Source: an uncultured virus (IMG/VR IMGVR_UViG_3300003324_000404) (taxonomy: Duplodnaviria; Heunggongvirae; Uroviricota; Caudoviricetes). Taken from it: DNA of 20,000 nt. The position numbers were made by a program, and so were the translations under genes. This document shows, piece after piece, positions 2,250-20,000 of the stretch (positions are counted from its first letter, which is position 1; every line of letters begins with the position of its first letter). The stretch is from the IMG/VR virus record IMGVR_UViG_3300003324_000404. One strand, written 5' to 3'. The notes under the pieces are model-generated. The model was not told the origin of the DNA. It worked only from the letters and a program-made list of their open reading frames with translations, and ran no database searches.

Positions 2250-2419
2250 CAGAGATCAGCCACCGCTTGCTTGAACGAGTTGATTCGGCCTTCGACCGTC
2301 TGGACAGTGTCGGCAACCATCGTCTGGGCTCGCTTGGCTCCGACAAGGATGACCACAAGCGTGGTCGTGGAAACTACCAAGCTGGTAGTTGCGATGATGA
2401 GAGTTGCGAGTTGCATCAT
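2249..2419 (-). CDS. small membrane protein, 56 aa
   Basis: MMQLATLIIATTSLVVSTTTLVVILVG... with an ATGA overlap and an AGGAG RBS. Confidence 0.75.
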   Translation of the reverse strand: MMQLATLIIATTSLVVSTTTLVVILVGAKRAQTMVADTVQTVEGRINSFKQAVADL

Positions 2420-2796
2420 GACTCCTGTGGAATTGAGAACTTCTTGACATACCAGGCATACGAAGCGTCGTACGTGCGCTTCGCCAGAGTTCCGTCCGGG
2501 TAACGGGCGAGGAACTTTACAAGAGGCGAGCTCGGAATTGTTCGCCCGGCTTCGTCTTCCTGGAATCGAGGCTCGATTTCCACTCGAACTACCTCGCACC
2601 ACCGGTTGCACTCCAAGATGCGCTTCCGGTCGTACTTGTTGTCGAACCCGTCAATGTCGGCCTTCATGAGGGACGACTCAACTAGCACAATCATTCCCGG
2701 CCTGAGCTCCGTTCCGTCGAACAACAGGTCGTCGTCCTCGGGGTTCATGACGTAATCGCGATCAACAAAGAGGGACTGCATGTCTTGCTCGTTCAT
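2416..2796 (-). CDS. hypothetical protein, 126 aa
   Basis: ORF track; AAGGAGATCCCAAC precedes the ATG. Confidence 0.85.
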   Translation of the reverse strand: MNEQDMQSLFVDRDYVMNPEDDDLLFDGTELRPGMIVLVESSLMKADIDGFDNKYDRKRILECNRWCEVVRVEIEPRFQEDEAGRTIPSSPLVKFLARYPDGTLAKRTYDASYAWYVKKFSIPQES

Positions 2797-2838
2797 GTTG
2801 GGATCTCCTTAGCTCTTCTAGCATGGACAGAAATATAA

Positions 2839-2890
2839 AGGAGCTGCGCGGCCCCTTATAGGGTGGCAGGGTAGACTACTACCTTCTCCT
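2839..2890 (-). ncRNA. putative small structured RNA 3 (~52 nt)
   Basis: An AGGAG/CTCCT closing stem encloses GGTAG-TAGT-CTACC and CTGC..CCCT-ATA-AGGG..GCAG hairpins. It starts right after the motif hexamer, has a T-rich tail and contains no ORF. Confidence 0.5.
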
Positions 2891-2934
2891 ATTATAGGCC
2901 AAGATTTTTTTGCGAGGTCTCAGCCAAAAGTTAA

Positions 2935-3035
2935 GAGAAGCTGATTTTCTCATTTCAATTAGCTGGGTCAGCGCTCCAGTGTCACCTGGTTGCATACCAT
3001 TCAATCCCACAATCGAGTGGGAACTAATACTTCTC
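2935..3035 (-). ncRNA. putative structured RNA 2 (~101 nt)
   Basis: GAGAAG/CTTCTC closing stem, ATTAGTT/AGCTAAT helix, TCCCAC/GTGGGA and CCAG/CTGG hairpins, and a T-rich tail. It sits between two motif copies. Confidence 0.6.
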
Positions 3036-3064
3036 ATTAGAGGCGTTGCAAATTCTGCGAAAAT

Positions 3065-3192
3065 TGGAGAGAAGAGGTACAACGCCCAACTAAAACGTTG
3101 TCGTTAAGTGGCTGTTTGGTCCGTGCCACCACGCCGCCCAGGATTCGAACCTGGACATTAGTGTGTCGGCATCCCTTACGGGATCTCTTCTC
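3065..3192 (-). ncRNA. putative tRNA-like structured RNA 1 (~128 nt)
   Basis: 8-bp GAGAAGAG/CTCTTCTC closing stem plus a 3' TCCA, an ATCCC-GTAA-GGGAT GNRA hairpin, a T-arm CCAGG-TTCGAAT-CCTGG (3138-3154), and GTGGC/GCCAC and ACAACG/CGTTGT hairpins. Confidence 0.7.
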
Positions 3193-3225
3193 ATAAGACG
3201 CCGTGTTTTTCTCGCGATTGCGCAG

Positions 3226-3256
3226 AAAACTACACCCCAGGTTTCAGGGTGTAGTT
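3226..3256 (-). terminator. intrinsic terminator
   Basis: AACTACACCC...GGGTGTAGTT stem plus a T run after the stop at 3264. Confidence 0.8.
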
Positions 3257-3263
3257 GTCGGCC

Positions 3264-3404
3264 TCAGCGAAGTGTGGCGTAGGTCTTCTTCGTCGACTTG
3301 ACGGCTCCTCGGATGACGAACATGACGATCTTGTACGGGATGTACATGACAGCCATGAAAGCCAGGAAGAGGAAGGTGTTTCTCATCAGTTCGAAGATGT
3401 CCAC
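3264..3404 (-). CDS. small membrane protein, 46 aa (cassette gene)
   Basis: GTG-start MDIFELMRNTFLFLAFMAVMYIPYKIVMFVIRGAVKSTKKTYATLR, with an AAAGGAAA RBS, lying between a motif and a terminator. Confidence 0.75.
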   Translation of the reverse strand: MDIFELMRNTFLFLAFMAVMYIPYKIVMFVIRGAVKSTKKTYATLR

Positions 3405-3462
3405 GTGTTTTCCTTTCGTTTGGGGTCATTATAGGCCTAGAAATTCCCGCGAAGCCATACAC

Positions 3463-3488
3463 AAAAGGAGAGCCTAGGTAGGCTCTCC
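3463..3488 (-). terminator. intrinsic terminator
   Basis: GGAGAGCCT-ACCT-AGGCTCTCC-TTTT. Confidence 0.85.
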
Positions 3489-3493
3489 CGGTC

Positions 3494-3697
3494 TCAGCTA
3501 TTGAGTTCTTCCCAGTATTCGGGGCTGTAGAACTCGATCGGGTCGATGCCCTTCTCCTCCAAGAACGCGTAAAACGCTTTCACGTTGCTCTGTTGAAGAG
3601 CGATGGCGCCGGCGGCGACCATTGTCATCAGGTAAGCAACCTTGTTTCGCTTGACGTGGTTCTTGAATGAGACGGCAGTCTGTACGATGCGGTCCAT
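3494..3697 (-). CDS. small protein with one hydrophobic segment, 67 aa (cassette gene)
   Basis: ORF track; AAAGGAGAAGAA RBS. Confidence 0.85.
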   Translation of the reverse strand: MDRIVQTAVSFKNHVKRNKVAYLMTMVAAGAIALQQSNVKAFYAFLEEKGIDPIEFYSPEYWEELNS

Positions 3698-3744
3698 TTC
3701 TTCTCCTTTGTTGGGGTCATTATAGGGCCAGAATATCCCGCGAC

Positions 3745-14342: not shown

Positions 14343-16766
14343 CTATGCAGGGTCGTAGTACAGGCGAATTGCGAAATACGCGATGTCGATGTGTGCTGTT
14401 CCCACACCCAAGCCGGGCCTGAAATCATCACACCAGATTCGGTTTGCAGGAATTTGAGTTCCTGGAATTCCTGTTAGTCTCGACAAGACCTCGTCAGCAG
14501 AACATTCGACTTCTCCGAAAGATCCCACAGGAATATCGTTGAAGACGAACTCGCTTGGGGCCGAAGAGTTTCCAGAACTGTTTGTCACACCAGATGACTC
14601 GCAGTAAAGGAATGGTACAGTCGTTGGCGCCGGGAAATATCCGGCATACGGACTGAAAGCCGAACCATCGTTCGAAGATCTCCGCGCAATCACAACATAG
14701 TGCGCCTTAGTCAACACATAGCCTGGCGGAGTAGCCGGCATGTAGATGTTGACGTTGGATGGAGCTGTTCCCGTGTCTGTTTCTCCGAAATACTCAGGTG
14801 CATACCGCTCGTCGTGAGTGACAGTTACATAAGTAGACGTGTCTGGAGTGCCCATTTCGTCGAATGCTCCTCCACCACCAGGACCTGTAGCATCCCAAGC
14901 AGGTAGGTCGAGAGTGAACGACTCCAACGGTGCCTCCTCGAAGCAGTTTGCCAGGAATCTTGAGTTATCCAGAACTACCTCTGCCGTGACTTCGGAATCC
15001 CCCACATAGCCCGCATCGTTCTCGATGAAGGCTTGCGGGTCGATGCTTGGCGTCAAATTTCGATCGAGCAAGTAGGTAACCGAACCGGCATCGCGCTCCC
15101 AGACTTTTACATTGGCTGCGCCCCAGGTCCAATACACCCTGGCCCTGTACCAAGTCTCGTATTCGATGCTGAACGTCACATCGGCGGGGGTGGTGGTTCC
15201 TTCGTCTCGCCAAGCAACTACCGGGAGATGTCCTGCGTCGATCTCGACTTGAAGACTTCCCGGAATATCCCCATCAAACGCCATAACTTTCTTTGTGTCG
15301 CCAATCGCTGTTGACTTGAGCGCCACGCTCTTGACTTTGAAGTCGATGAAGGAGGTAAACGCCTGCTCGAGATAGTCGGTGTGTCCCGCATTCCAGATCA
15401 TCTTCTTGATCCAACCCTGATCCGTATCGGGATACGCTCGCAGGTAGAAGTCGCCATCCGTCAAGTTGAGGATGACGATCTTCGCCTCGTAGACACGGAC
15501 TTCCACAGGAAGTTCCGCCGGATCCGAATTGAAGTTGGAAGCCCCACGGAAGTTCATGAAAGCTCCGGCCTCGAGAGCGGCCACAACATCAGCCTCTGTC
15601 GAGTTAACCCACGCGTCCATGCGAAGAGGAACGACGTAGTCTGTGGGGGTACCACTCACGTCGGTCAACTTGAATGCCATTCCCTCTTGAGCACCGTCAG
15701 AGAAACCGCCAACAGCTTCCAAACCCTCGACGTCGGTCGAGATGTGCACTTGAGCCTCGGCATCGACATTGTCGGGATCGTCTGGGTTCACAAGCCCATC
15801 GATGGACATGCGAATATGCAGCTCGATCTTGCTACCGACTGCATATCCTCCAGTTAAGGGCGGGATCGGGAACGTGTACCCAAGATCGCCCTCACCAGAC
15901 GTGACGTACGTAGTATCATCATCGTCCGCCAGCACATCTCCTGTGCCGACGATAGTAGGAGTCGCAGCCGAGCCATTGTCCTCCATGTCGACCCCGAGAA
16001 TGGGGATTTCCGTGATGTCAAGGCCGTTGTTCACGATTCCAAAGACAGTGACCTCTGTGTCGTTCTCAACGTCTTCATCCGTTTCGTCAATCGGAAGGCC
16101 GGGGTTGTAGCTGTTGAAGTCGTCCACAAGGTTGATGCAAGACTCCTCCTCGGTCGGAGGGGGCGGCGGACCCACCGACAGTGCATTACACGGCGGAAGT
16201 GTTCCTCCGAGAATGGTGTTCAGGAGCGCGTCAACGTCAGCTTCTCTCGAGTCGAACGTGTAGTACGACCAAATACCACATGCTGGGGTTGTCTTGATCG
16301 TAATCGATCGAGACTCCGGAGTCGAGACGTCAGTCTTGGTCTGATACGAACGACCAGAAGGCTGTGCCTGAGCGTTGTAGACAATGTGCAGCCGGTAGCC
16401 CAGATTCTCGGTCTCATCGTTGCCGATTTGCGTGACCCAAGCCAGATTGAACTTGATGCGAGGGTTCTGGTGAGTGTACATGCCCGGATAGTCGGTCGAC
16501 TCGTAGACACCTTCGCACTGAAGAAAGGCCTTTGGCGTATTTACGCACTGAATTTCGGCAGAGAACTCGTCTGCCTCAATCTTCTCGTAGTAGATTACGC
16601 CGTCAAAGTACCATTTCTCCGAGTCGTTCTCCGTCGTCGGATTGATGTTGACTCCGGTGAAGCCGTTCCAGACATAAGCCCCGCCTGTATGAGGGAACAG
16701 AACAGCCTTGGAGGAACCGTACTCGTAGGTACGTTCGCCGGTAGCGTCGTGAACGAGCTCTGTCAT
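14343..16766 (-). CDS. tail protein: N-terminal major-tail paralog fused to a long acidic C-terminal region
   Basis: The N-terminus MTELVHDATGERTYEYG...WNGFTGV aligns by eye with the major tail MTKVTWDGTGERKFETG...WNGLTTV, followed by a PPPPP linker. Confidence 0.8.
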   Translation of the reverse strand: MTELVHDATGERTYEYGSSKAVLFPHTGGAYVWNGFTGVNINPTTENDSEKWYFDGVIYYEKIEADEFSAEIQCVNTPKAFLQCEGVYESTDYPGMYTHQNPRIKFNLAWVTQIGNDETENLGYRLHIVYNAQAQPSGRSYQTKTDVSTPESRSITIKTTPACGIWSYYTFDSREADVDALLNTILGGTLPPCNALSVGPPPPPTEEESCINLVDDFNSYNPGLPIDETDEDVENDTEVTVFGIVNNGLDITEIPILGVDMEDNGSAATPTIVGTGDVLADDDDTTYVTSGEGDLGYTFPIPPLTGGYAVGSKIELHIRMSIDGLVNPDDPDNVDAEAQVHISTDVEGLEAVGGFSDGAQEGMAFKLTDVSGTPTDYVVPLRMDAWVNSTEADVVAALEAGAFMNFRGASNFNSDPAELPVEVRVYEAKIVILNLTDGDFYLRAYPDTDQGWIKKMIWNAGHTDYLEQAFTSFIDFKVKSVALKSTAIGDTKKVMAFDGDIPGSLQVEIDAGHLPVVAWRDEGTTTPADVTFSIEYETWYRARVYWTWGAANVKVWERDAGSVTYLLDRNLTPSIDPQAFIENDAGYVGDSEVTAEVVLDNSRFLANCFEEAPLESFTLDLPAWDATGPGGGGAFDEMGTPDTSTYVTVTHDERYAPEYFGETDTGTAPSNVNIYMPATPPGYVLTKAHYVVIARRSSNDGSAFSPYAGYFPAPTTVPFLYCESSGVTNSSGNSSAPSEFVFNDIPVGSFGEVECSADEVLSRLTGIPGTQIPANRIWCDDFRPGLGVGTAHIDIAYFAIRLYYDPA

Positions 16767-18879: not shown

Positions 18880-20000
18880 TCAGGCAGTGCGAGTGAAGCT
18901 CCAGGTCGCGTCGAAGTTGTGCGGGAAGTAGTACCCGGCGTTCGGGTATGCCCTCACGTACAGCGTGTCGCCCACCGAGAGGGCCGACTGCGCACCAGAC
19001 GACAGAGTCGCGTTGGTCTCGTCGTTCTTGTAGGTCACGTTCGCGGTGCTCGGGATCGTCACCACACCAGTGGAGTTGACGAACGTCGGAACACCCGGAG
19101 TGACCTCGGTGCCGTTGGCACGGACGAGGGCCAGAGCCGCCTTGTACTTGGTCAGAGCACCGGAGATCCGGGTCTCGATCAGGTACTTGTACTGGTTGTA
19201 GTCGATGTCGAAGTCGTCGAACAGGCCGATGGCCGCACCCTTGTCCGCACCGACGGTGTAGTCGATCAGGTTGACGATGAGCCCGAGCAGCTCGCCGTCG
19301 TCCGTCTGCACACCCTCCATGACCTCGACGGTCACGATGTTCTTCACACGAAGAGCGACAGCCACGTCGTTCTCGGTCGGGTAGAGGCGACGCCCCATCC
19401 GGTCCTTCTCGAGGAGGAAGTTGGCCAGCTCGTCGTCGGTGGTGTAGAACGTCGGGTTGCCCGAGCCCTTGTAGTACTTCCTGGCGCGCAGGATGTACTC
19501 CACCTTGTCGTCCACGGTCGACTCGGCCGGAACGATGACCTTGTGGGTGTAGACGTCGTCGTCGAACGCGATCGGACGGATGCCTGCGCCGTCGCCGGCG
19601 GTCGGGGGCTCCTTGATCTTGTCCTCGTCGTCCACCTCACGGCCGTCACCCACGAGGATCGCACGAGCGATCTCCTCGTCGAGCATGACGCGCATCTCGG
19701 CCTTCATCCAGGCCACCACGTCGATGTCGGTGATGTCGAGGATGTCGTCGCGGTCGAGCTTCTGCTTCTTGTAGATGGTGGCCGGCGTGGTGACGCGCTT
19801 CGACAGCGTGAACCACTCGTCCTTCTTCAGGCTGCCCTTGGCGTAACCCTTGGCACGCGCCTCGTCGGCGGTGATGTCGGCCAGCATGGTCTTGACCCGG
19901 CTGAAGGGGGAGTGGCGAACGCCGTTGAGGACACCATCGACCCACTCGGTGCGACGCTTGATGAACTCAGGCGAGGGAACAGGTAGTCGATGTTCTCGAT
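18880..20000 (-). CDS. major capsid protein (5' part outside the window)
   Basis: The frame is open to the window edge. Motifs 'DITADEARAKGY', 'IYKKQKLDRDD' and 'DDFDIDYNQYKYLIETRISGAL'; highly biased codons; upstream of the head-tail genes. Confidence 0.9.
   Translation of the reverse strand, partial: REHRLPVPSPEFIKRRTEWVDGVLNGVRHSPFSRVKTMLADITADEARAKGYAKGSLKKDEWFTLSKRVTTPATIYKKQKLDRDDILDITDIDVVAWMKAEMRVMLDEEIARAILVGDGREVDDEDKIKEPPTAGDGAGIRPIAFDDDVYTHKVIVPAESTVDDKVEYILRARKYYKGSGNPTFYTTDDELANFLLEKDRMGRRLYPTENDVAVALRVKNIVTVEVMEGVQTDDGELLGLIVNLIDYTVGADKGAAIGLFDDFDIDYNQYKYLIETRISGALTKYKAALALVRANGTEVTPGVPTFVNSTGVVTIPSTANVTYKNDETNATLSSGAQSALSVGDTLYVRAYPNAGYYFPHNFDATWSFTRTA

What the first reader, a model, noticed from the sequence alone, without database searches (positions are those of the whole stretch)
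2839..3217. Three tandem ORF-less units form a cluster of closed, multi-hairpin ncRNAs
Seen: after the motifs at 3191-3217, 3034-3060 and 2889-2915 there is no RBS-plus-ORF. In each case the bases right after the hexamer pair with the unit's far end (GAGAAGAG/CTCTTCTC, GAGAAG/CTTCTC, AGGAG/CTCCT), enclose 2-4 hairpins and are followed by a T-rich tail. All three begin with a related (G)GAGAAG sequence. Inference: these are three discrete small RNAs of about 128, 101 and 52 nt that share an end architecture. They could be decoys or sponges for host RNA-binding or defence proteins. I do not recognise them as a known family.
Basis: partly seen in the sequence, partly recalled or inferred. Interest (0 to 1): 0.85.

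Follow-up and report, generated by a model that had tools for sequence, protein, structure and literature searches.

The report
New tRNA-like phage small RNA array
An uncultured soil phage carries three gene-less, promoter-driven units in a row, and the first is a well-conserved folded RNA of about 125 bases with a transfer-RNA-like arm that matches no catalogued RNA family and has no known function.

Summary
On the minus strand, three copies of the phage's repeated promoter motif (11 exact copies in the window against 0.28 expected) are each followed by an ORF-less stretch. In each stretch the first bases pair with the bases just before a T-rich tail.

Unit A (3192-3060) is a real structured RNA. 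I found 15 distinct homologs in viral and metagenome contigs. 98% of pair cells are standard pairs, against 31-48% in slid controls, and 22 of 34 pairs show compensatory changes. It has a terminal stem, four hairpins including a canonical tRNA T-arm, and a short helix clamping that arm. It matches no Rfam family, ARAGORN calls no tRNA, and it fails the YrlA/Y-RNA membership tests.

Unit C (2890-2831) is conserved in three lineages, with 3 compensatory pairs. It runs straight into the ribosome-binding site of gene 2796-2416, so it is more likely a structured leader or attenuator. Unit B (3035-2926) is an orphan with no comparative support.

Related phages carry variable arrays of such closed units. 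They also encode a YonO/crAss-like RNA polymerase, which may read these promoters.

Function is unproven. My best guess is a trans-acting mimic of the tRNA elbow. No expression data exist.

The parts
3193..3217 (-). Promoter motif of unit A (TCGC-N15-TCTTAT)
   Evidence: Same 25-nt geometry as the window's 11 exact motif copies. All 15 homologs of unit A have such a motif directly upstream.
3060..3192 (-). Unit A: conserved structured RNA, about 125 nt plus tail. P1 3192-3185 with 3076-3069; H1 3184-3171; P2 3170-3167 with 3136-3133; conserved linker 3166-3155; T-arm 3154-3138 (loop TTCGAAT); H3 3130-3107; H4 3101-3079 (loop TTTTAGTTGGG); T-rich tail 3068-3060.
   Evidence: 15 distinct homologs at 107-161 bits to model R1. 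98.0% of pair cells are standard pairs and 22 of 34 pairs show changes on both sides; slid controls give 31-48%. The same result holds on an ungapped MAFFT alignment of 8 sequences. MFE z-score -3.98. G-U pairs fit only this strand.
3036..3060 (-). Promoter motif of unit B (TCGC-N15-TCTAAT)
   Evidence: Exact motif match. It resembles the promoter that precedes unit C in relative L008.
2926..3035 (-). Unit B: orphan ORF-less unit, closed by GAGAAG(T) with (G)CTTCTC, with 3-4 predicted hairpins and two ATTGAA(A)TG motifs (3005-2998, 2959-2951)
   Evidence: MFE z-score -2.60. No homolog in related loci or IMG/VR apart from identical copies. It holds 2 of the window's 3 ATTGAA(N)TG matches.
2891..2915 (-). 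Promoter motif of unit C (TCGC-N15-TATAAT)
   Evidence: Exact motif match.
2831..2890 (-). Unit C: two small hairpins (2882-2869, 2863-2851) closed by AGGAG 2890-2886 with CTCCT 2843-2839, then TTATATTT
   Evidence: Homologs in L008, L014 and L039. 3 compensatory pairs in 3 distinct sequences, one of them in the terminal stem at the third base after the hexamer. A local terminator-like hairpin at 2857-2838 was also flagged.
2797..2830 (-). Conserved leader between unit C and the start codon, holding the Shine-Dalgarno AAGGAG
   Evidence: 87% identical over C plus leader in L008 and L014. When C is folded together with the leader, CUCCUU pairs with AAGGAG instead of with the 5' AGGAG.
2416..2796 (-). 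First gene after the array (126 aa, unknown function)
   Evidence: Good RBS. Distant homologs in 18 Streptomyces, Arthrobacter and Microbacterium phage records.

Best explanation
The stretch holds three back-to-back transcription units without genes. Each consists of the phage's own repeated promoter motif, an RNA whose first bases pair with its last bases, and a U-rich tail.

Unit A is a gene for a stable, compactly folded small RNA of about 125 nt. It belongs to a family conserved in a lineage of uncultured soil and root siphoviruses related to Arthrobacter, Streptomyces and Gordonia phages. Its core is a tRNA-derived module: a canonical T-arm clamped by a short acceptor-like helix (P2). A hairpin whose loop carries a D-loop-like GUUGG sits beside it, and the whole is closed by a purine/pyrimidine terminal stem that doubles as the terminator stem.

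The mechanism I think most likely is that unit A acts in trans as a mimic of the tRNA elbow. It would bind, and so occupy or recruit, a host or phage factor that recognises that shape; candidates are tRNA-modifying or processing enzymes, an Rsr-like protein, or the ribosome.

Unit C is the structured 5' leader of gene 2796-2416. It probably gates read-through or translation through three competing segments: 5' AGGAG, CUCCU and the Shine-Dalgarno sequence. Unit B is a lineage-specific cargo of the same promoter/terminator cassette, and whether it has a function is unknown.

Shown: the motif repeats, the absence of ORFs, the conservation and covariation of A and (weakly) C, and the fact that A and C are not in Rfam.

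Inferred: transcription, the start site, termination at the terminal stem, the tRNA-elbow fold, and all function.

Rough odds:
- A is a selected structured RNA: 0.95.
- A is made as a discrete sRNA: 0.7.
- A works by tRNA mimicry in trans: 0.3-0.35.

The confidence given for this entry (0.5) is for the statement as a whole.
For: Family and structure:
- 15 distinct homologs came from four pattern scans. All score 107-161 bits with model R1.
- 98.0% of pair cells are standard pairs, against 76% in shuffles and 31-48% in slid controls. 22 of 34 pairs change on both sides.
- An alignment not fitted to the structure gives 97.8% paired and 18 of 34 pairs changing on both sides.
- Independent MFE folds of most homologs recover the same helices.

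tRNA-like features:
- The T-arm is a 5-bp stem with loop UUCGAAU and a G-C closing pair. Three of its stem pairs covary.
- Every P2 pair covaries: 4 of 4.

Genomic behaviour:
- There is one copy per genome in 5 of 5 related records.
- All 15 copies have their own promoter motif and a T-rich tail.
- 11 of 15 are followed by another promoter motif, so unit A is not tied to one downstream gene.
- Flanking genes differ between lineages while the RNA stays 81% or more alike.
- No reading frame is open in all homologs, and the frame starting at the hexamer's ATG runs for 12 to 45 codons.

Terminal stems:
- They covary with the bases right after the hexamer in unit C.
- The same holds in other units of related phages, for example GAAAGAG/CTCTTTC, GAGAACC/GGTTCTC and GAGAGAGAAATC/GATTTCTCTCTC.
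Against: - No RNA data exist: no listed sequencing run that holds the stretch is an RNA run.
- If the TATAAT-like hexamer is an ordinary -10 box, transcription would start about 7 nt downstream and P1's 5' strand would not be in the RNA.
- P1 is mostly invariant: 5 of 8 pairs never vary. Its fourth pair is an A-C mismatch in 7 of 15.
- The T-tail in this window lies 5 nt after the stem, which makes a poor intrinsic terminator.
- In 4 of 15 lineages unit A is followed directly by an RBS and ORF with no promoter motif. That fits a cis-acting leader.
- The tRNA likeness is partial. ARAGORN finds no tRNA. The best Rfam resemblances are insignificant: mascRNA at 11.9 bits with E 6.3, and YrlA at 10.7 bits for the T-arm only.
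- The homologs were fished with patterns that fix the T-loop plus one other conserved segment. Conservation of those segments is therefore partly by construction.
Confidence: 0.5

Rival explanations
1. Units A and C, and perhaps B, are cis-acting leaders or attenuators. The aptamer-like fold decides whether P1 plus the U-tract terminates transcription or lets it run into the next genes. Any short RNA released is a by-product.
For: - Unit C has no promoter between it and gene 2796-2416. Its CUCCU(U) can pair either with the 5' AGGAG or with the Shine-Dalgarno sequence.
- 4 of 15 unit A copies (L023, L032, L036, L044) sit directly in front of an RBS and ORF.
- The T-tails are weak, as expected for a leaky or regulated terminator.
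Against: - 11 of 15 unit A copies are followed by a fresh promoter motif.
- The downstream genes are unrelated between lineages.
- Unit A's most conserved parts are loops and a tRNA-type arm, not an obvious expression platform.
- It matches no known riboswitch model.
Confidence: 0.25
2. Unit A is a phage Y RNA of the YrlA type. The terminal stem would bind a host Ro60/Rsr protein, and the tRNA-like domain would be the effector module.
For: - The layout is the same: the 5' and 3' ends pair, and the internal order is hairpin, T-arm, hairpin, D-like hairpin. This matches the V-T-AS-D order described for YrlA (passages and section 6 of PMC4201824).
- That paper reports YrlA-related sequences in 22 bacteriophages.
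- Sister units share the same terminal stem with different insides, as Y RNA paralogs do.
Against: - The Rsr-contact motif GNCGAAN0-1G is present in 0 of 15.
- No TROVE-domain gene is found in 0 of 5 related phage records, one of them rated 100% complete.
- Rfam YrlA scores at most 10.7 bits on the T-arm against a 69-bit cut-off.
- Helix P2 clamps the T-arm in a topology YrlA lacks.
- The host, and therefore whether it has Rsr, is unknown.
Confidence: 0.07
3. The units are passive cargo or relics: decayed tRNA genes or leftover terminator halves trapped between shuffling promoter-terminator cassettes of the PeSL type. They would have no RNA function of their own.
For: - The window's small genes are each flanked by a terminator hairpin and the promoter motif.
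- Unit B is present here and absent in the closest relative, exactly between two promoter copies.
- Related phages carry different sets of units.
- 'Empty' promoter-hairpin-T-run units exist.
- Unit B has no homologs.
Against: - For unit A this is excluded by compensatory change in 22 of 34 pairs across 15 lineages and one conserved copy per genome.
- For unit C it is weakly countered by 3 compensatory pairs.
- It remains fully open for unit B.
Confidence: 0.1
4. The stretch encodes small peptides: the 67-aa TTG ORF 2879-3082, or a leaderless ORF starting at the ATG formed by the hexamer and the first G.
For: - The ORFs exist mechanically.
- Every promoter copy creates an ATG at the hexamer/+1 junction.
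Against: - The 67-aa ORF has no RBS, spans a promoter and a terminator-like tail, has no PHROG match, and its middle is missing in relatives.
- The ATG frame ends after 12 to 45 codons and shifts frame between homologs.
- No frame is open in all 15 homologs.
- The substitutions are compensatory in RNA helices.
Confidence: 0.02

Closest known systems
YrlA-type bacterial and phage Y RNAs (Chen et al. 2014, PMC4201824; Rfam RF02553)
   Same: - About 110-130 nt long.
- The 5' and 3' ends form a stem.
- Inside lies a tRNA-like domain with an exact T-arm and a D-loop-like hairpin, in the order hairpin, T, hairpin, D.
- Found in some phages of actinobacteria.
- Paralogs share the stem and differ inside.
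   Different: - No GNCGAAN0-1G motif (0 of 15).
- No Ro60/TROVE gene nearby or anywhere in 5 related records.
- Fails the Rfam model.
- Has an extra helix (P2) closing around the T-arm and a conserved 12-nt linker.
- The terminal stem is a plain purine/pyrimidine helix followed by a U-tract.
tRNA and tRNA-like small RNAs such as mascRNA (Rfam RF01684)
   Same: - T-arm with a 5-bp stem, loop UUCGAAU and a G-C closing pair.
- A short helix follows the T-arm like an acceptor stem.
- The GUUGG loop could play the D-loop's part at the elbow.
   Different: - No cloverleaf, no anticodon arm and no CCA end.
- ARAGORN finds nothing.
- mascRNA scores 11.9 bits against a 42.5-bit cut-off, with E 6.3.
- P2 is only 4-5 bp.
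- The D-like hairpin lies 3' of the T-arm, not 5' of it.
PeSL promoter/stem-loop cassettes of T4-type phages (PMC2839356, PMC4122927; I saw only the search listing and the starts of the abstracts)
   Same: - A conserved composite promoter-terminator motif repeats around small, variable genes.
- Neighbouring phages differ by whole cassettes. Unit B is present here and absent in L008, between two promoter copies.
   Different: - A different phage group and a different motif.
- Here several cassettes carry folded RNAs instead of ORFs, and the stem-loop's two halves are split to the two ends of the cargo.
- Mobility through mini-circles was not tested.
Riboswitch or attenuator leaders whose closing helix is coupled to an intrinsic terminator
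   Same: - Promoter, then a multi-helix fold closed by P1, then a U-tract, then genes (unit C, and 4 of 15 unit A copies).
- Alternative pairing with the Shine-Dalgarno sequence in unit C.
   Different: - No match to any Rfam riboswitch.
- Most unit A copies are followed by a new promoter.
- No ligand or expression platform was identified.

Membership tests
tRNA | Cloverleaf with acceptor, D, anticodon and T arms detectable by a tRNA finder | tested here: not met
   ARAGORN finds 0 genes in the window. No tRNA model hit at E<=10.
tRNA | T-arm: 5-bp stem, 7-nt loop UUCRANY, G53-C61 closing pair | tested here: met
   CCAGG-TTCGAAT-CCTGG at 3154-3138. The stem pairs covary and the two inner G-C pairs are invariant in 15 of 15. 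The loop was fixed by my search patterns.
YrlA / Y RNA | Rfam RF02553 score at or above the gathering cut-off (69 bits) | tested here: not met
   No hit at E<=10 in the window region. In 5 related records the only hit overlapping unit A scores 10.7 bits and covers the T-arm only.
YrlA / Y RNA | GNCGAAN0-1G motif near the 5' end (the proposed Rsr contact; PMC4201824, section 6) | tested here: not met
   0 of 15 homologs have it anywhere.
YrlA / Y RNA | Encoded next to a Ro60/Rsr (TROVE) gene | tested here: not met
   PF05731 matches 0 of 5 related phage records. The control rang in 2 known genomes. Host genomes are unknown.
YrlA / Y RNA | Paired 5'/3' ends enclosing stem-loops in the order V, T, AS, D | tested here: inconclusive
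   The order H1, T-arm, H3, H4 (with a D-like loop) fits. P2 around the T-arm and a 7-bp H4 stem do not fit.
Rho-independent terminator (terminal stem plus U-tract) | G+C-rich hairpin immediately followed by a run of U | tested here: inconclusive
   The consensus scan flags only a local hairpin in unit C, at 2857-2838. The terminal stems span 50-125 nt. The tails start 0-5 nt after the stem, and 15 of 15 unit A copies have a T-rich tail.
PeSL-type promoter-terminator cassettes | A conserved composite promoter plus stem-loop motif repeated around small variable genes, with cassette-wise differences between relatives | tested here: met
   11 motif copies against 0.28 expected. Terminator hairpins sit directly upstream of the motifs. 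Unit B differs as a whole cassette from L008. The motif itself is unrelated to the T4 one, so this is a likeness in how it works, not homology.
CRISPR-repeat mimic (RNA anti-CRISPR), considered for unit B | Similarity to a host CRISPR repeat | tested here: inconclusive
   No CRISPR-DR family of Rfam hits at E<=10. The host and its repeats are unknown. The idea rests on a recalled likeness of the hairpin plus ATTGAA motif to repeat 3' ends.

The most novel reading that the evidence does not exclude
These phages make a family of 'closed' small RNAs. Each would be transcribed from a phage-specific promoter that abuts the start site, possibly by the phage's own YonO/crAss-like two-barrel RNA polymerase. 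All would share one terminal purine/pyrimidine helix that serves as a common handle for a protein, as the Y RNA stem serves Ro60. The variable insides would be interchangeable effector modules. Unit A would be a tRNA-elbow mimic that captures a host tRNA-handling or defence factor, unit B perhaps a mimic of another host RNA, and short units would act as gates. On this reading the array is an RNA-based host-takeover or counter-defence kit.
Probability: 0.15. Interest if true: 0.85.

Novelty: new variant of a known kind. Interest (0 to 1): 0.66.

Why it matters
Few phage-encoded structured small RNAs are known apart from tRNAs. This one has unusually clean comparative support, contains a tRNA-derived module in a new topology, and sits in a group of actinophages whose own non-canonical RNA polymerase and promoters are uncharacterised. 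If the terminal-stem covariation means what it seems to, the conserved 25-nt motif is a promoter that ends right at the transcription start. That would give a first handle on what this polymerase recognises. The cassette-wise exchange of folded RNAs between related phages would extend modular promoter-terminator shuffling from genes to RNAs. Identifying the partner of unit A could reveal a new way for phages to exploit tRNA-recognising host machinery.

Tried and rejected
- **Close relatives among cultured phages:** megablast and blastn of 2400-3700 found nothing.
- **Neighbour protein as bait:** The search for related loci with the 126-aa protein gave only identical contigs.
- **A wasted scan:** one viral scan used a miscounted fixed gap and returned 0 matches. 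I repeated it with a variable gap.
- **RNA expression:** no RNA holder is listed for the stretch. I did not lay reads.
- **T7-like RNA polymerase (PF00940):** 0 of 4 records, but the search had no positive control.
- **PDB sequence search of the 938-aa polymerase:** nothing meaningful.
- **Integration site carrying a tRNA 3' half:** no integrase among the 30 window ORFs. The linker plus T-arm pattern has 0 matches in the genomes of 185,579 bacterial species. A looser pattern hit only ordinary tRNA T-arms there.
- **Weak full-length R1 hits:** L093, L097, L101 and L103 (15 bits) look like an unrelated degenerate tRNA-like element. A weak hit next to unit A in L039 (15.3 bits) may be a diverged paralog but was not pursued.
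- **Extension of P2 to 6 bp,** as in the mascRNA alignment: not conserved in other homologs, by reading the sequences printed.
- **H4 loop GUUGGG pairing with the mRNA leader CCCAAC:** the loop is invariant while the leaders of G003 and G006 lack CCAAC. Rejected.
- **Candidate pseudoknot between linker ACUAA and H4 loop UUAGU:** 4 of 5 pairs are invariant; one covaries (U-A to G-C in 2 of 15) with one exception. Kept only as a lead.
- **Unit B homologs:** BLAST against relatives and a 16-mer scan of IMG/VR gave only self copies and two unrelated chance hits.
- **My census script for terminal stems is crude.** It accepts only contiguous pairing, and some units are misclassified as mRNA-type. 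It found a stem of 5 or more pairs starting at base 1-2 in 27 of 37 ORF-less motif hits, against 19 of 85 mRNA-type hits.
- **Literature:** my searches found no earlier description of this RNA or of promoters for this polymerase group (passages read). Supplements were not opened.
Full report
**Context**

The window is part of an uncultured siphovirus in which every gene lies on the minus strand. Reading that strand, the order is:
- a capsid-protease fusion, two major-tail-like proteins, the tape measure and minor tail proteins;
- a holin;
- a run of small genes;
- the stretch in question, followed by further genes.

The major tail protein is under 50% identical to those of Streptomyces, Arthrobacter and Gordonia phages. 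Positions 2400-3700 are 100% identical to an IMG/VR record (G001) that shares only 56% of the window's sampled words overall. Sequencing runs that hold the stretch are labelled root and soil metagenomes, and none is an RNA run.

**Observation**

A 25-nt motif, TCGC-N15-hexamer (mostly TATAAT), recurs on the minus strand only. The pattern TCGC-N17-TAAT has 11 exact matches against 0.28 expected.

Eight copies between 6181 and 3428 are each preceded by a terminator-like hairpin. Each is followed by GACCCCAA..AAGGAG..start codon and a small ORF.

The copies at 3217, 3060 and 2915 are instead followed by GAGAAGAG, GAGAAG and AGGAG with no RBS or ORF. These first bases are complementary to CTCTTCTC (3076-3069), CTTCTC (2940-2935) and CTCCT (2843-2839), each shortly before a T-rich tail.

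MFE folds keep these closures.

**Unit A is a conserved structured RNA**

A scan for the promoter-leader motif found a 64-kb relative (L008, record G002). Its unit A is 81% identical, its flanking genes differ, and unit B is absent.

Three further pattern scans of IMG/VR and one of JGI metagenomes brought the family to 15 distinct sequences.

On an ungapped MAFFT alignment of 8 sequences, the structure I derived by eye gives:
- 97.8% standard pairs, against 31-48% when the partners are slid;
- changes on both sides in 18 of 34 pairs.

On the model-fitted alignment of all 15 the figures are 98.0% and 22 of 34. Single-sequence MFE folds recover most helices independently.

The RNA has these parts:
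- **P1:** a terminal stem of 8 bp.
- **H1:** a hairpin, usually closed by a GNRA-type tetraloop.
- **P2:** a 4-bp helix. All four of its pairs covary, and it encloses a conserved 12-nt linker and the T-arm.
- **T-arm:** a canonical tRNA T-arm, with a 5-bp stem, loop UUCGAAU and a G-C closing pair.
- **H3:** a hairpin with a 12-14-nt loop ending in AACA.
- **H4:** a hairpin with a 6-7-bp stem and the loop UUUNGUUGG.
- **Tail:** T-rich in 15 of 15.

G-U pairs at several positions fit only the minus strand.

A candidate pseudoknot between the linker and the H4 loop has one covarying pair (2 of 15) and one exception. I keep it only as a lead.

Two caveats apply. My search patterns fixed the T-loop plus one other segment, so conservation of those segments is partly by construction. 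P1 itself is mostly invariant: one pair is compensated in 2 of 15, and one pair is an A-C mismatch in 7 of 15.

**What unit A is not**

- **Not in Rfam.** There were no hits at gathering thresholds over the whole window, and only chance-level hits at E<=10.
- **Not a tRNA or tmRNA.** ARAGORN finds none.
- **Not a peptide gene.** No frame is open in all homologs. The frame that starts at the ATG formed by the hexamer runs for 12-45 codons.
- **Not a bacterial sequence or attachment site.** The linker plus T-arm pattern has 0 matches in the genomes of 185,579 species, and a looser pattern hit only ordinary T-arms there.

The closest described kind is the YrlA type of Y RNA. These have paired ends and a tRNA-like domain in the order V, T, AS, D, and some are phage-encoded (PMC4201824, passages and section 6). 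Unit A fails the membership tests:
- the GNCGAAN0-1G motif is in 0 of 15;
- a TROVE gene is in 0 of 5 related records, one rated complete;
- the Rfam YrlA model reaches 10.7 bits, on the T-arm only;
- the P2 clamp is a different topology.

So unit A may work like a Y RNA or another tRNA mimic, but it is not a member of that family.

**Units B and C**

Unit C has homologs in L008, L014 and L039. It has two small hairpins and the terminal stem. Three pairs are compensated among three distinct sequences, including a terminal-stem pair at the third base after the hexamer: G-C here, A-U in the others.

There is no promoter motif between unit C and gene 2796-2416. When unit C is folded together with the leader, CUCCUU pairs with the gene's AAGGAG instead of with the 5' AGGAG. 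Other lineages carry different two-hairpin units, or bare hairpins, in the same position before the gene block. I read unit C as a structured leader or attenuator that may also release a short RNA.

Unit B has no homolog beyond identical copies. It lies exactly between two promoter copies where L008 has none. It holds 2 of the window's 3 ATTGAA(N)TG matches. Its status is open.

**The array and the promoter**

Related phages carry variable sets of ORF-less units behind the same motif. Most start with GAGAAG and end with CTTCTC plus T's.

Where the start differs, the end differs to match:
- GAAAGAG with CTCTTTC;
- GAGAACC with GGTTCTC;
- GAGAAGC with GCTTCTC;
- GAGAGAGAAATC with GATTTCTCTCTC;
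- AGGAG with CTCCT.

In a crude census, 27 of 37 ORF-less motif hits had a stem of 5 or more pairs starting at base 1-2. The figure for mRNA-type hits was 19 of 85. The script misclassifies some units.

These matches argue that the bases right after the hexamer are part of the RNA. A standard -10 box reading, with a start about 7 nt downstream (established knowledge), does not predict that.

The relatives encode a 938-aa protein of PHROG 4291, labelled 'RNA-dependent RNA polymerase':
- It scores 1179 bits, full length.
- It carries a DFDGD motif.
- It has homologs in 250 phage records.
- It is present in G001, G002, G004 and G006. The two records without it are fragments rated 70% and 45% complete.

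A preprint assigns this protein group to the YonO/crAss-like two-barrel polymerases (10.1101/842583, passages).

The same promoter motif is conserved in Arthrobacter phage Circum and Streptomyces phage Rima, which infect different host genera. Neither carries unit A.

I infer, at roughly even odds, that the motif is read by the phage polymerase with a start site abutting the motif. Strongly conserved motifs directly upstream of start sites are documented for other phage two-barrel polymerases (PMC10770324, passages). The promoter of YonO itself was undetermined in PMC5467207 (passages). From memory, T7-type promoters also abut their start sites.

Against this inference, the motif sits in front of presumptive early genes and of the polymerase operon itself. 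That would suit host polymerase.

**Cassette behaviour**

Three features resemble the PeSL promoter/stem-loop cassettes of T4-type phages: the terminator-promoter junctions around each small gene, the cassette-wise difference at unit B, and the changing unit sets between relatives. For the two PeSL papers I saw only the search listing and the starts of the abstracts.

**Mechanism and verdict**

Shown:
- a repeated promoter-like motif;
- three ORF-less units;
- a new, strongly covarying RNA family (unit A) with a tRNA T-arm;
- weak covariation for unit C;
- nothing comparative for unit B.

Inferred: transcription, the RNA ends, termination at the terminal stem, and function.

My best guess is that unit A is a stable sRNA acting in trans as a tRNA-elbow mimic (about 0.3). 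A cis-acting leader role comes next (about 0.25). Smaller shares go to a Y-RNA-like partnership with a host Rsr and to other roles.

The finding is real and new as an RNA family. It is a new variant of the known kind 'phage or bacterial tRNA-like small RNA'. Its biological meaning needs RNA-end mapping and partner identification.

Noticed in passing
window 6181-3428 (minus strand): Each small gene after the holin has its own copy of the 25-nt promoter motif and is preceded by a terminator hairpin ending in CTCTCC plus T's. This is a promoter-terminator cassette array.
   Followed up: partly
G001 40022-42823; G002 19577-22393 (L064:578-3394, minus strand): The phage lineage encodes a 938-945-aa YonO/crAss-like putative RNA polymerase with a DFDGD motif. 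[quoted passage not shown] It has homologs in 250 phage records, including Lactococcus and Faecalibacterium phages.
   Followed up: partly
L065 (Arthrobacter phage Circum) and L066 (Streptomyces phage Rima): The same TCGC-N15-TATA(A/G)T-GAGACC motif is conserved in cultured phages of different host genera: 9 or more and 12 or more copies in front of small genes. I found no mention of it in the papers I searched.
   Followed up: partly
L065 11234-11385 (Circum record about 29233-29384, between gp41 and gp42): A promoter-motif copy is followed by an ORF-less stretch of about 105 nt that starts GGAGAAGAG and ends in a T-run. This is an unannotated candidate sRNA in a cultured phage.
   Followed up: no
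G002 about 23293 and G001 about 39104; L020 and L039 units before the gene block: 'Empty' units: a promoter motif followed at once by a short hairpin and a T-run. One sits just upstream of the exonuclease-polymerase operon.
   Followed up: no
L040 (unit after unit A) and L039 1740-1886 (minus strand): Sister units in other lineages also contain T-arm-like hairpins. One of them gives a weak hit to the unit A model (15.3 bits, E 0.036), which suggests diverged paralogs.
   Followed up: no
window 14343-16766 (minus strand): In this 807-aa protein the first 180 residues match the major tail protein family (phrog_2645). It lies two genes downstream of the 296-aa major tail protein, so it is a second, extended tail-tube-like protein.
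   Followed up: no
window 18880-19887 (minus strand): This ORF matches both head maturation protease and major head protein families. That fits the capsid-protease fusion reported for Arthrobacter cluster AM/AU phages (PMC5513430 passages).
   Followed up: no
G002 (L050:9091-9798 and L050:18028-18411, minus strand): The complete relative encodes a protein with the N-terminal domain of dATP/dGTP diphosphohydrolase (PF18909) and a Tad3-family Thoeris inhibitor (PF25185).
   Followed up: no
window 1144-1120 (minus strand): A further promoter-motif copy (hexamer CATAAT) is followed at once by the hairpin GAACGG-AAAC-CTGTTC and then an RBS. The same arrangement occurs in G001 and G002.
   Followed up: no
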